This document shows positions 15,906 to 32,379 of a DNA stretch of 48,799 bases, one piece after another. Below the pieces are notes generated by a model. The model did no database searches. It saw only the letters and a list, made by a program, of their open reading frames with translations, and had not been told where the DNA came from. Within the stretch, counting starts at the first letter, position 1; each line of letters opens with the position of its first letter. The DNA comes from Reclinomonas americana ATCC 50394 (taxonomy: Eukaryota): positions 1 to 48,799 of the forward strand of contig PS015046.1 of assembly GCA_048213135.1 (NCBI GenBank), written 5' to 3'. The position numbers were made by a program, and so were the translations under genes.

Positions 15906-18900
15906 ATGGCCGGACACACGCCCGATGCCGTGCGACAAGTCATTCGTCGCGTGACCGGTCAGCAGTCACGAATTTTGCATGACAAACCCCTCACTCGCTC
16001 TCTCACTCTCTCTGTCTGTGCTCAGTGCATGAGAGCTCCTCAAGCACAGTCACACGCAGTGGCATGTCCTCTGCAATGTACGCCACAGGTGGCACTGCAG
16101 TGCCGTACTTTTCACCCTCTCAACATCAACAACAACAGCCGCATCTGCAGCGAAGAAGCACCAGCAAGTCGACGTCTGTTGCAGCGGGAGGTCGACCTCT
16201 GGAGGCGTCGATTATCCCGCGCGAAGTGGTTGCGGCGGAGGAGCAAACCCGTGGACCGATTCTGCCTTTTGTGGAGCGACAGCATGCGCAGCAGGGAATG
16301 ATGATGCGAGGGAGACAGCGTGTGGAGACTGTGTCGAGTGTGTCGACTGTGACGAGTGCAGTGGGGAGAGTGGTTGGAAGGGGCGAGTTTGGTGAGTATC
16401 TGTTGGTGCACAGTCTCTCTCTTTGATGGGCAGCATGGTGTGTGTCTCCCTCCTCTCATGCTGTTCTGGTCCCTTGCAAGTTGATTCGTTTGTTCTTCGC
16501 TCCCGTATAGTCGCTTCATCGTGTGCATTCTTCTTCCTCCATATATATATCTCTCTGGGCGACAGCTCCTCGCGTCCTTGCGTTGGGTCAATGGTTTTGT
16601 GCCGCCGTCTTGCTTGTCCCTTGCGAGTCGATCCGTTTTGTGTTCTTGTCATCGCTTCATCGTGTGCATTCCTGCCGTCTCTCCCCCCTCTATCCCTCAC
16701 TCTGAATTGGTTACATGGTCTTGTGCCTCCTCTGTTCGTCCTGCAAACCTGCTGCTCTGGCCCCTTGTTCGTTGGCCAGGGGTCTTCTTTGACTCTTTAC
16801 TCGTGTTTCTTCGTGTGCATTCCTGCTTCCCTATTGCTCCCCTTTTCAATCTCGTGCACGACGATGTCGCTCCCCAGACAGATCGCCATCGTGTTGTCCT
16901 TTCCTGCTGTGTTGGTCGCGAGTTGATCTCGTTTGTGCTCGTTGGCTCGTTCGTTTCTCACGCTTCACCATTGATTCCCGGCCTCTCATTGCTCACCTCC
17001 TTCATTGGCTCACCGTTCTTGTGCCCCCTCTTCTCGTCTCGCACGATCTGCTCCCTCGTTCTTCTTCCTACGTCCACCCTTTTCGTCTTGTTGACAATTG
17101 CGCTCATAACATTACTCCTCTCGCAGAATCACCCGAAGGCCATGGTCAGTCGCCAGTGCGCCTTCCACGTGGTTCGTGGTTCTTTAACTCCCTTTGGCCT
17201 TGTCCACTATGAATCGCTATTCTCACTGCACCCCCCGTCACAGTGACGAGCTCCGAGTGGTCACTCTCCGGTCGACCCTCCTACGGTGCATCGCCAAAGC
17301 CAGTTCCGTATCTCCCCTCCATCCGTGCTATGTTTTCATCGCAATCTCACTGGCTGCACACACACAGGGCGCTGGAAGCCCGTCGTTGCCGCAGGCCGGT
17401 GGCGGTCGGCAAACAGATGGCCGTCAACGACAGCAGCATCCGAGTCCAGGTCTCGTGTCTCTTTCCTCTCCGCTCTCGTTGATGCACGGCGTCTCTTACC
17501 ACTATCGATAGGTCCTGGCGCGTATTCCGTGACCGTCAACCAGGGTGCTGCTGGTCCAAGTTACACCATCCAAGCAAGACGGGGTGTTCGCGTTGTGACC
17601 GACACATCTCCAGGTTCGTACCTGAGGAATGGGAGCACTCTTTCTCCGCCTCTCTCCTTCTCTCCCCCTCTGTCAGTATCAGGTTCTATCTTGCTGTCGC
17701 GTTTCCTCGTTCTTGCTTCTTCTCATCCAGTCCTTGCACACACAGGCCCTGCTGCCTATGCACCCGCACGCACAAGCCCGAAACCCTCAACTCCAGCCTT
17801 CTCCATTGGGAAGCGCACCAAATCTCCTCGCGCACCCGGTAGCCCTGGTCCAGTGCGTGGCCGCCGCTGCCTTTGTCTTCCTTTCACCGCACATTCACAC
17901 TCCCGCGTCGCAGGGTCAGTACAATGTCCCGCCTCTGCGCCAGGTGAGACCAGCATCGCCCGAGTACAGTATCGCCGGGCGGCACAGTGCTGGTCGACCG
18001 AGTACGGCCGACTCACCGGGACCTGTTGCGTGAGCTCTTGCCTCTAGCTTCAACTGTTGTCTCTTACTCTTTTGTGGATCTTCTCTATACTCCCTTCACC
18101 TTCACATGCTGTCGTTCTCTTCGATCGTGTTGTTGTTTTCCTCGTGATCCGCATACAGTAGTTTCCTTCATTCCCCTCTGCTGCATTCTCTTCTGTTCCC
18201 TCGCTCCGCATCTGCATTGTGTTTGGTCTCTGTCCTTCTCTCATTCACTCTCCACCAGCGCTCACTCCGCGTTCACTCTTCTTTCTTCTGCATTCTCCAT
18301 TGTGAATTCTCGCCGACCCTCCACCACTCCATTTTCTCATGTATTGGTGTGTCTCCCTTCTCTCCTCTTCCTGCCATCCTTCCCTTCCCCTTCCCTCCTC
18401 GCCTCCCTGTCCCTCCCTCCCTCACCCCTTCCATCTCTTCTGCCAGGGCGCCTATCAATCATCCTCCGCTCGCCCCGCCAGCGGCCCCACCATCGCCGGT
18501 CGTCCACCCGAGACGCAGAGTGCTCGCGCTCCTGGTGCGTCCCCTCGCACCACTTTGTGCTGTGCTGTTCACTCAATCGCCCTCCACCCACAGGACCCGG
18601 CGATTACCAACCACAAACGCGCGTCGTGCAACATCACTCTCCTCAGTGGACACTCGGTCAGCGACAAGCGACAAGTTTCAGCACCGCCACGTCGTCCTCT
18701 CCCGGTCCAGTTGCGTGCACTATTCCTCCTGTCGACGACATTCCACAGCGGCATCTCACTTGTAATGCAGGCTGCTTACTCGGTTCCGTCGACGGTACCC
18801 GGTGGCATCTCCGTCAGCCTGCTCGGCCGCGACACGGCTCGCTCGAATCCGAGCGACAGCTTCCCCGGCCCGGTATGTGTATGTGTCTGCTATCTTTATC

Positions 18901-30900: not shown

Positions 30901-32379
30901 ATGCAGATCGTGTGATCCTTGAAGTGCAGACGAGAAAAGAGATTATGAAGAGAAAAGCAAGAATAGATACGGACGAAAGTGATCAAGGGAGAGATGACAA
31001 GACACAGAAAATAACATGAGACGGAAGGCCGGGAGAGACAGTGAAGAAACATAAGAAGAGTTGTGAAATCGAGAGAGGGAATGCAGGAATTGGCAGAGAA
31101 GAATGAAATGTAGAAAAGGAAAGGAGAGAAGGATGGAGAGTGACAGTGAAGGACGACGAGTGAGTGAGTGAAACGTGTCGGAGAACATGACAATGAAACA
31201 AGATGAGATGATGAGAGTGACAGAGAAAGAGAACCGGAGTGACGGAAAGACGCGAGGATAGATCTGTGCACAGGCGATAGGAGTTGCTGGTTTGTGTTGA
31301 CATGTTAATTACTTCAGGTGCCTATGAGCTGAAATCGACGTTGGCCACCGGTGGCATCACCATTGCTAAGCGAATTGCGGAGGTGAGAGGCTGATTAGTT
31401 TACTGTGCCACCTGTGACTTTGTTGCTCATTCGGGTGTGTGCAGGCGGTTCGCGACGCTTCTCCAGGGCCAGGTAATTTACGAATCAGTGCTCTCACTTG
31501 TCTGTTGCAACGGAGAACTGAGCTGTCGCACGCACGCGCTGGAATACATCTCGACCTCGTTGCCTCGTTTGCCTTCTTTCCTTCCTCTCACACCCACTCA
31601 CTCGTCTGTCTGTTTCTCTTACTTGTCTGTTCTCTCTCTCTCTCTCTCTCTCTCTCTATGTGTGTGTGTGTGTGTGTGTGTGTTTGTGTGTGTCTGTCTG
31701 CCTGTTTGTATATCTCTCTCTCTCTTCTGTTCTCTGTCTGTCTGTCTGTGTGTGTGCGTGTGTGTCTCTCTCTCTCTTATTCCCTCTCTCACACATTCAC
31801 TCTTCTATTCTCTGTAACTCTTTGTGTGCTCTCGCACGCACATTCTAACCCCTTTCTTTCACCATGCAGCCGCCTACGAAGCACACGAAGCGCACGCGAA
31901 GATGAAATCCACTGGCGGCTTCACCATTGGCGGACGCCTGGCGATCCCGACCGAAGCGTCTGGGCCTGGACCGGTACGCACATTGACTTGCATGAGCTCC
32001 TTCACCCTCCTGCTGACTCACGCCCCTGTGTCTCGTCAAAGGGTGCCTATCGGTACGACAACCAGGAGAAACCCAAGGGCGGCGTCATGGGCATTCTGAC
32101 GAGAATAACCAAGGGCGAGTCGGCGGCACCGGGTCCCGGTCAGTACGCCGCCGAGAACTCGCCGGCGGTACCCAAACTAGGCAGCAGGGGCGGATTCTCT
32201 ATCGGACAGCGATTTGCCGCCAGGAGAGATGACACGTCGCCAGGTTTGTCGCGCGCTGCATGAACACATGGGGGAGAGAGCGAGGAAAATAATGCCACTG
32301 TCGTGCTGCAGGACCGGGCGCGTACAATTTTGAGGGCAAGAGTGGGAAGCCGGCGGGGCGTTTCGGCACCGGCATGTGA
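15906..32379 (+). CDS. Giant SHIPPO-repeat (ODF3/STPG/CIMAP1-type) protein: about 75 exons, about 79 PGPG/AxY repeats, roughly 2,800 aa
   Basis: Manual splicing gives a continuous frame of [ST]PGP[GAS]xY...P[AS][FWY][TS][IM]xxR units from PSPGPGAY (about 17440) to TSPGPGAYNFEGKSGKPAGRFGTGM, with the stop TGA at 32377-32379. Two small gaps fall in or next to introns. The N-terminal exons (15906-17302) are less certain. Confidence 0.9.
20684..20688 (+). other. 5-nt coding microexon GACCG (SSP-GP-GAY)
   Basis: cag|GACCG|gtttgt. It bridges the phase-1 donor at 20607 and the phase-0 exon starting at 20747. Confidence 0.85.
22187..22191 (+). other. 5-nt coding microexon GCCCG (DNP-GP-GAY)
   Basis: cag|GCCCG|gtttgt. 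It bridges the donor at 22124 and the exon starting at 22256. Confidence 0.85.
22583..22587 (+). other. 5-nt coding microexon GACCG (ASP-GP-SDY)
   Basis: cag|GACCG|gtgcga. It bridges the donor at 22517 and the exon starting at 22656. Confidence 0.85.
22980..22984 (+). other. 5-nt coding microexon GACCG (MTP-GP-GMY)
   Basis: cag|GACCG|gtgatt. It bridges the donor at 22919 and the exon starting at 23054. Confidence 0.85.
23388..23392 (+). other. 5-nt coding microexon GACCG (ATP-GP-GNY)
   Basis: cag|GACCG|gtatgg, with branch-like ACTAAC upstream. It bridges the donor at 23322 and the exon starting at 23461. Confidence 0.85.
23978..23982 (+). other. 5-nt coding microexon GACCG (RLP-GP-SEY)
   Basis: cag|GACCG|gtgaga. 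It bridges the donor at 23900 and the exon starting at 24047. Confidence 0.85.
24362..24366 (+). other. 5-nt coding microexon GACCG (RAP-GP-SSY)
   Basis: cag|GACCG|gtttgt. It bridges the donor at 24306 and the exon starting at 24438. Confidence 0.85.
25266..25375. repeat. Compound (CT)n(GT)n microsatellite in a SHIPPO-gene intron
   Basis: Direct observation. Confidence 0.95.

What the first reader, a model, noticed from the sequence alone, without database searches (positions are those of the whole stretch)
15906..32379. Giant SHIPPO/ODF3-type protein with about 79 repeats encoded by about 75 exons
Seen in sequence: a 16.5-kb locus that splices into one open frame of about 79 PGPGxY repeats (manual count), roughly 2,800 aa. 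Established knowledge: SHIPPO-repeat proteins (ODF3/CIMAP1, STPG) are axonemal or microtubule-associated and are only a few hundred residues long in animals. Inference: this is an order-of-magnitude longer filamentous microtubule-lattice binder or molecular ruler, possibly for flagellar doublets or root microtubules.
Basis: partly seen in the sequence, partly recalled or inferred. Interest (0 to 1): 0.75.

Follow-up and report, generated by a model that had tools for sequence, protein, structure and literature searches.

The report
Giant 80-repeat microtubule-gripping protein gene
This is a real 75-exon gene of an unidentified protist for a roughly 2,900-residue protein made of about 80 microtubule-binding repeats; it is extreme but not unique, because similar giants sit unstudied in many protists, and the trypanosome one lies at the basal body.

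Summary
Observation confirmed. Bases 15906-32379 (+) splice into 75 exons and 2,851 aa with 79 SHIPPO (PF07004) repeats. A second copy on contig C35 keeps the exons, splice sites and frame (pN/pS 0.06). It also shows one more repeat hidden in the window's gap at 29984-30003, so there are at least 80. No RNA run was listed, so one transcript is inferred, not shown.

The uniqueness claim fails. Of the 150 best hits, 27 are 1,500 aa or longer: Gefionella 3,374 aa (about 90-100 repeats, transcript-derived), Trypanosoma brucei 2,395 aa (about 51), diplonemids and Rhodelphis. A later search added green-algal proteins of 1,170-1,710 aa.

Most likely it is an extended protein lying in a groove between protofilaments, one repeat per 8-nm tubulin dimer (about 0.64 micrometres in all), stabilising long-lived microtubules. 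A fixed-length ruler is doubtful: trypanosome homologues carry 36-51 repeats.

New lead: the T. brucei giant is Tb927.7.7200, placed by TrypTag at the basal and pro-basal body. Ten paper searches found no description of such giants. The scan noted this gene's seven 5-nt exons before, on another piece of this genome.

The parts
15906..32379 (+). Whole gene model: 75 exons, 2,851 aa as assembled (at least about 2,880 aa with the repeat hidden in the gap), about 298 kDa, pI 9.6
   Evidence: exon list
15906..17449 (+). Exons 1-5: about 200-aa low-complexity N-terminal extension without repeats; the least secure part. It supplies the start, as the next in-frame Met after exon 2 lies in repeat 7
   Evidence: frame joins; 8 synonymous and 4 non-synonymous differences from C35; no Pfam match; no useful Atlas hit (0.76)
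17440..32379 (+). Array of 79 SHIPPO/PG-rich repeats: P-G-P-(G/A)-x-Y plus a second motif [FWYHV][ST]-hydrophobic-x-x-R in 65 of 79; spacing 31-40 aa
20684..24366 (+). Seven 5-nt micro-exons (20684, 22187, 22583, 22980, 23388, 23978, 24362), each supplying the Gly-Pro of a motif
   Evidence: all seven identical in the C35 copy, with AG and GT kept
20747..21229 (+). Three recently duplicated one-repeat exons (repeats 15-17), in-phase and 3n long
26851..28557 (+). Block of alternating short/long repeat pairs from two-repeat duplications (198-nt exons; longest exon 28069-28557)
   Evidence: similarity at lag 2 (0.158) exceeds lag 1 (0.102); Pfam 69.9 bits
19551..19808 (.). Assembly gap inside the intron 19452-20050; the motif continues in register across it; also a gap in C35
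29984..30003 (.). 20-N gap that hides a donor site and at least one more repeat. C35 has 513 N here, then an 87-nt coding piece (C35:26667-26581, minus strand) ending in phase 0 before GT
   Evidence: the piece occurs once in G000
32312..32379 (+). Last exon with the final motif and TGA, followed by AT-rich sequence
   Evidence: stop kept in C35

Best explanation
One protein-coding gene encodes a giant sperm-tail PG-rich (SHIPPO) repeat protein with at least 80 repeats and no globular domain. Shown: gene structure, purifying selection along the whole array, family membership. From published structures of short relatives: each PGP(G)xY motif binds the outer groove between two protofilaments, and the spacer carries the chain to the next tubulin dimer 8 nm on. 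Inferred: this protein does the same about 80 times and lies along about 0.64 micrometres of a stable microtubule as a high-avidity staple, stiffening it rather than measuring it. Its likeliest site is the flagellar apparatus (basal body, roots or proximal axoneme), by analogy with the trypanosome giant. The array grew by internal duplication of one- and two-repeat exon units. Lineages seem to have reached giant size separately.
For: Allele test: pN/pS 0.03-0.09 in each of five 530-codon blocks. 63 of 70 introns in the array fall at three positions inside the motif codons (2.1 expected), and 56 of 79 motifs are split by an intron, so exons join in register. Pfam and PDB matches. PMC10105768 passages: the motif binds microtubules, spacers of about 40 aa span 8 nm, and 12 motifs are proposed to span 96 nm. 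Spacing has a floor: of 1,823 spacings in 150 hits, 3 are 29 aa or less, 43 are 30 and 207 are 31; none here is under 31. A single ORF of this size exists in a Trinity-derived Gefionella protein. Tb927.7.7200 lies at the basal and pro-basal body with N and C tags. A Chlamydomonas SHIPPO protein of at least 884 aa is in cilia. Giardia SHIPPO proteins are on disc, axonemes and median body. G000 has IFT57 and many dynein heavy chain loci. 61 of 76 repeats match best within this protein.
Against: No transcript or protein evidence for this gene. Two gaps interrupt both copies. Binding and the 8-nm step come from 250-600-aa relatives with longer spacers (about 40 aa in Tetrahymena, 33 here). Similarity to the trypanosome giant is repeat-level only (27% identity), so orthology is not shown and its location may not transfer. 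The TrypTag signal is marked fainter than parental, though not classed as faint. G000 appears to be a mixed assembly (an earlier scan note, not tested), so I assumed that the flagellar genes and this gene belong to one organism.
Confidence: 0.75

Rival explanations
1. It is a true length ruler: repeat number times 8 nm sets the length of a basal body, transition zone, root or other microtubule segment.
For: Strict spacing floor. About 51 repeats give about 0.4 micrometres, the order of a basal body plus transition zone (size recalled), and that protein sits at the basal body. Repeats of T. brucei and T. grayi match across species more often than within (29 of 48 and 28 of 35), so their order is old and kept.
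Against: Estimated counts differ among Trypanosoma homologues (51, 44, 41, 36) and show no clustering at multiples of 12 among the 33 long proteins estimated (rough counts, some gene models uncertain). Recent duplications in this gene. No terminal anchoring domain found.
Confidence: 0.15
2. It is an ordinary axonemal outer-surface protein like CIMAP1/ODF3L, only longer, tiling doublets or the central pair along the whole flagellum. This differs from the best explanation only in place.
For: All 10 PDB matches are chains named as ciliary or sperm-tail microtubule proteins. A long Chlamydomonas SHIPPO protein is in cilia. Its closest repeat-level matches outside the genome are green-algal proteins.
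Against: The only localised giant is not annotated as axonemal. Giardia members also decorate non-axonemal arrays.
Confidence: 0.3
3. The locus mainly yields shorter isoforms by skipping in-phase repeat exons, so the full 80-repeat form is rare and length is tuned by splicing.
For: Many exons are one or two repeats long, 3n in length and in the same phase at both ends. Volvox and Gefionella records list several isoform lengths.
Against: Selection is uniform along the array. Many exons are not 3n and must be joined in pairs.
Confidence: 0.12
4. It is two or more tandem shorter genes, with a boundary in a long intron or an assembly gap.
For: Eight introns exceed 100 nt, and two contain unread sequence in both copies.
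Against: Exons flanking the long introns end and begin in mid-repeat in the same register. The piece seen in C35 ends in the phase the next exon needs. No stop-bearing exon or second start exon is visible, and the gaps are estimated at about 0.5 kb or less.
Confidence: 0.05

Closest known systems
CIMAP1A/B/C (ODF3, ODF3B, ODF3L1; PDB 8otz, 8iyj, 8snb) and Tetrahymena STPG1A/ODF3L (PDB 8g2z; PMC10105768, passages read)
   Same: Same PF07004 repeat with the PGPGxY motif; top matches by profile (E 1.8e-20 for 8otz_At); expected same groove-binding mode.
   Different: Those chains are 251-364 aa; the Tetrahymena proteins carry 5-12 motifs spanning 48-96 nm. This one has at least 80 motifs, shorter spacers (median 33 aa), and Ala in place of the second Gly in 31 of 79.
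DMAP7 (590 aa, PDB 9e78) and the 476-aa sperm-tail PG-rich chains (9e5c, 9y6s)
   Same: PG-rich repeat chains matched in solved structures.
   Different: Five to six times shorter. I did not read the papers behind these entries.
Trypanosoma brucei Tb927.7.7200 (XP_846340.1, 2,395 aa, about 51 repeats)
   Same: Giant PG-rich array after a long low-complexity N-terminus. TrypTag places it at the basal and pro-basal body.
   Different: Fewer repeats, 38-aa spacing, orthology not shown. No main-text mention found, and it is not TbBBP248.
Gefionella okellyi EP00698_P001109 (3,374 aa)
   Same: Equal or larger array (86-90 motifs, about 103 units estimated) in a single transcript-derived ORF, with alternating 33/31-aa repeat pairs.
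   Different: Every second repeat has a shortened motif; 26% identity; repeats cluster within each protein; uncharacterised.
Giardia SHIPPO disc proteins DAP9148 and DAP103164 (bioRxiv 10.1101/361105, passages read)
   Same: Same family, on stable non-axonemal microtubule arrays as well as axonemes.
   Different: The one Giardia member seen in my search (H-SHIPPO 1) is only 294 aa.

Membership tests
SHIPPO-rpt / sperm-tail PG-rich (PF07004) | Match to PF07004 above the curated cut-off | tested here: met
   7 of 8 repeat-bearing exon stretches exceed 20 bits (best 69.9; one scored 14). The spliced protein itself was not scanned against Pfam.
SHIPPO-rpt / sperm-tail PG-rich (PF07004) | Tandem PGP(G)xY motifs with 30-45-aa spacers | tested here: met
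   79 motifs, Pro at +2 in 79 of 79, Tyr at +5 in 75 of 79, spacing 31-40 aa; strict PGPGxY in 35
SHIPPO-rpt / sperm-tail PG-rich (PF07004) | No globular fold; extended chain | tested here: inconclusive
   A two-repeat AlphaFold2 model has pTM 0.20, mean pLDDT 65 and is mostly coil; composition P 15%, A 13%, G 10%, S 10%. Consistent but weak.
CIMAP1/STPG microtubule-associated proteins | Binding in the outer inter-protofilament groove, one motif per 8 nm | not testable with these tools
   Taken from PMC10105768; the 30-31-aa spacing floor fits
CIMAP1/STPG microtubule-associated proteins | Location in the axoneme | not testable with these tools
   The host assembly has IFT57 and dynein genes; the trypanosome giant is at the basal body instead
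CIMAP1/ODF3 orthologues | Size of about 250-400 aa and orthology to animal ODF3 | tested here: not met
   2,851 aa; repeats match best within the protein or its paralogue on C89 (71 of 76; animal ODF3 was not in that set). Filed in the repeat family, not as an ODF3 orthologue.
Axonemal molecular rulers (CCDC39/CCDC40 type) | Conserved length equal to a fixed structural period | tested here: not met
   Homologue counts of 36-51 within Trypanosoma and about 17-103 overall; the exact count here is unknown because of the gap

The most novel reading that the evidence does not exclude
Many flagellate lineages have independently evolved giant PG-rich proteins (35-100 repeats, 0.3-0.8 micrometres of reach). 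These form an undescribed class that runs the length of the basal body, transition zone or flagellar roots and sets or holds that length. They would be missed by 48/96-nm cryo-EM averaging, and repeat number would predict organelle length across species. This gene, with at least 80 repeats built from exon modules, would be among the longest.
Probability: 0.15. Interest if true: 0.8.

Novelty: new variant of a known kind. Interest (0 to 1): 0.45.

Why it matters
The family is known and the motif's job is known. What I found no paper on is a giant form that could span a whole basal body or root in one molecule. It turns up across distant protist groups, and one member lies at the basal body of a genetically tractable organism (Tb927.7.7200), so its role in stability or length control can be tested now. 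The gene also illustrates why such proteins are under-counted: 56 of 79 motifs are cut by introns, and a six-frame Pfam search of the genome listed none of this locus among its six matches. As a single finding it is an extreme member, not a unique one.

Tried and rejected
- RNA evidence: no RNA holder listed for 26800-29450; no evidence either way, and no reads were laid.
- Automatic gene model: it missed four short or misplaced introns in the array and the 5' exons. My first hand model added a false intron at 16089-16138, rejected on frame.
- Regex unit 30 was dropped as a false motif, giving 79.
- Possible retained introns: 9 of 74 are 3n and stop-free. I kept them as introns on splice signals and repeat register; retention was not tested one by one, except that 17614-17745 is 125 nt in C35.
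- N-terminal 200 aa: no Pfam match for exon 2, no Atlas hit of weight, no BLAST match under E 0.75 among the 150 hits.
- The 29-aa C35 gap piece alone gives no Pfam match.
- AlphaFold2 of two repeats was uninformative; no fold search or complex prediction was run.
- Tb927.7.7200 as TbBBP248: rejected, that is Tb927.7.7400.
- XP_001699390 as the methylated ciliary protein Cre03.g204913: residues 879 and 884 are not Arg, so they were not equated.
- Clustering of repeat counts at multiples of 12: not seen.
- The word-index homologue search reached only 285-2,000 aa and returned no near-identical protein.
- The host lineage was not determined.
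Full report
Observation. The stretch 15906-32379 is a plus-strand eukaryotic gene. Six-frame translation gives 22 PGP(G/A/S)xY motifs, all on the plus strand inside the locus. The rest of the window has none, and 100 triplet shuffles give a mean of 0.08. A self-trained splice model, edited by hand, yields 75 exons, 8,556 coding bases and 2,851 aa. Of 74 introns, 73 are GT-AG and one donor lies in an N gap; the median length is 67 nt and 62 have a branch-like sequence. After a 200-aa low-complexity head come 79 repeats, 31-40 aa apart. 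The first four motif residues are P 78, G 74, P 79 and G 45/A 31/S 3, Tyr follows at +5 in 75, and a second aromatic motif occurs in 65. Only 35 are strictly PGPGxY. Seven of 8 repeat exon stretches tested pass the PF07004 cut-off.

Independent test. My model forces an open frame, so I looked for outside evidence. G000 holds a second copy on C35, with matching flanks from window 7040 to 33033 at 85-98% identity; it is most likely the other allele. 74 of 75 exons mapped automatically at identical length and one was placed by hand. The copy has no stop, keeps every checkable GT and AG, and differs at 224 coding bases, 190 of them third positions. pS is 0.085 and pN 0.0052 (ratio 0.06; 0.03-0.09 in five blocks; 0.17 on 12 changes in the head). 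In contrast the 65 short introns compared show 7.5% mismatch and 47 indels, and 20 change length by a non-multiple of 3. The exon-intron assignment and purifying selection along the whole array are therefore well supported, including seven 5-nt exons that are identical in both copies.

One gene or several. 63 of the 70 introns in the array sit at three positions within the motif codons, against 2.1 expected, and 56 of 79 motifs are split by an intron. The long introns are flanked by half-repeats that join in register. Two assembly gaps interrupt both copies. At the second, C35 has 513 N followed by an 87-nt coding piece with one more repeat, ending in the phase the next exon needs; it occurs once in G000. 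So the window's 20-N gap hides coding sequence and the true count is at least 80, perhaps up to about 84 (my estimate from local density). No RNA run was listed, so a single transcript remains an inference.

Is the size unusual? A two-repeat profile from 16 window stretches found 5,808 proteins at E 0.001 or better, of which the best 150 were listed. Among these 150, 27 are 1,500 aa or longer, 9 are 2,000 or longer and 3 are 2,800 or longer. 11 to 17 have 40 or more motifs, depending on the pattern, and one has more than 70. I looked up 30 long proteins and 20 named an organism, among them Gefionella okellyi 3,374 aa (Trinity ORF; 86-90 motifs, about 103 units), Trypanosoma brucei 2,395, T. 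congolense 2,067, T. grayi 1,975, T. vivax 1,720, Leptomonas 3,097, Phytomonas 2,515, Diplonema 1,849 and 1,975, Rhynchopus 1,946, Rhodelphis 2,414, Diphylleia 1,770, Hexamita 1,424, Stentor 1,208, and green algae 1,170-1,711. That these span several eukaryotic supergroups is recalled. The window's protein has the second-highest count among those seen. Animal relatives seen were 250-520 aa. The same genome has further long paralogues: about 1,390 aa on C89 and a similar array on C113/C148 (automatic models, unchecked), plus shorter or cut loci. Of 76 repeats compared, 61 match best within this protein and 10 in the C89 paralogue. Gefionella, Rhodelphis, Stentor and Hexamita repeats likewise match within themselves, while the two Trypanosoma proteins match each other. 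This fits separate expansions, though homogenisation of an old giant is not excluded. Similarity at lag 2 exceeds lag 1, pointing to two-repeat duplications.

How it most likely works. Kubo et al. (PMC10105768; passages and supplement search) show that the PGPGxY motif binds the outer wedge between protofilaments. Spacers of about 40 aa step 8 nm, and the authors propose that 12 motifs span 96 nm. The window's profile matches these and the mammalian CIMAP1 chains in the PDB; CIMAP1 proteins were present in all mammalian motile cilia examined (PMC11779644, passages). Across the 150 hits, spacing has a sharp floor: 3 of 1,823 spacings are 29 aa or less, 43 are 30 and 207 are 31. That is what a fixed physical step would impose (inference). 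Eighty repeats would then cover about 0.64 micrometres of one groove. A two-repeat AlphaFold2 model is low-confidence coil, which adds little. I read the protein as a high-avidity stabiliser of long-lived microtubules (0.75). A fixed ruler is less likely (0.15), because counts run from 36 to 51 in four Trypanosoma proteins and show no clustering at multiples of 12.

Where it acts. The assembly has IFT57 and many dynein heavy chain loci, often in pairs, so the host is probably a diploid flagellate; an earlier scan note suggests the assembly is mixed. In TrypTag Table S3 (PMC9981465; passages and table rows), the tagging primers of Tb927.7.7200, translated by eye, give both termini of the 2,395-aa T. 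brucei protein. [quoted passage not shown] It is not among the basal body proteins matched in PMC5210500 (passages and supplement search). Pointing the other way, a Chlamydomonas SHIPPO protein of at least 884 aa is in a ciliary methylome table (PMC11244166, one table passage). Giardia members lie on disc, axonemes and median body (10.1101/361105, passages), and Stentor members rise in anterior regeneration (PMC9371601, one passage). Orthology with the trypanosome protein is not shown, so the site stays open.

Literature. Ten searches (listings and abstract starts) returned no paper on giant PG-rich proteins and none naming Tb927.7.7200. Passage searches of 10.1101/2022.01.23.477438, PMC13406575 and PMC10522465 added nothing on size. 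The library lacks most subscription papers, I did not read those behind the trypanosomatid PDB entries, and bioRxiv supplements were closed, so a mention may exist. The scan had already noted the seven 5-nt exons of a giant repeat gene on another piece of this genome, probably the C35 copy; I had found them before that look-up.

Verdict. The family assignment and filament reading are sound, and the claim of uniqueness is not. It is a near-record member of a widespread giant variant of a known microtubule-binding family that I could not find described, with a testable basal-body lead. Interest 0.45.

Noticed in passing
T. brucei Tb927.7.7200 (P0012): A 250-kDa protein with about 51 PG-rich repeats, annotated at basal and pro-basal body by both tags; no main-text mention found in the library.
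   Followed up: partly
G000:C89:52553-60182 (-); G000:C113:211679-219939 (-) with its copy on C148: Two more long SHIPPO genes of roughly 35 repeats each. The C113 one has three near-identical copies of a block of about 205 aa, and some repeats use a five-residue PGPxY motif; C148 shows an inverted, gap-bounded piece that may be a misassembly.
   Followed up: partly
G000:C4844/C7646 and C4765/C4876 (L001, L002, L005, L006): Further paired SHIPPO loci on short contigs; the C4844 one runs off the contig end.
   Followed up: no
window 17614-17745: A 132-nt intron, about twice the usual length, has an internal AG-GT near its middle in both copies, as if two introns stood back to back (possible recursive splice site or zero-length exon). 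The upstream half lacks a clear branch sequence.
   Followed up: no
P0002 (Gefionella okellyi, 3,374 aa): Alternating 33/31-aa repeat pairs in which every second motif is shortened; a two-repeat (16-nm) register like the pair duplications in the window's gene.
   Followed up: partly
window 12791-13912 (+): Upstream neighbour: a stop-free stretch of at least 373 aa encoding a PQQ-type beta-propeller (PF13570, PF13360), striking in an intron-dense genome; origin not examined.
   Followed up: no
window 15182-15275 and near 41297-41360: Degenerate short-period repeats (telomere-like in the first case) directly beside N gaps; possibly read-end noise rather than real sequence. Similar noise lies beside a C35 gap.
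   Followed up: no
window 1905-2300 (-), 7022-7468 (+), 40207-40401 (-), 43063-43158 (+), 32500-34000 (-), 35755-37428 (+): Neighbouring genes: SH3 protein, RCC1-like protein, ATG4 peptidase C54 and a ubiquitin-like piece (Pfam; the last two weak or partial). A short oxidoreductase-like gene tail-to-tail with the SHIPPO gene and a PME-1-like esterase were recognised from recalled motifs only, with no Pfam match.
   Followed up: partly
window 43364-43831 (-) and 48186-48650 (-): Two similar, degenerate kinase-like stretches below the Pfam cut-off, amid gaps.
   Followed up: no
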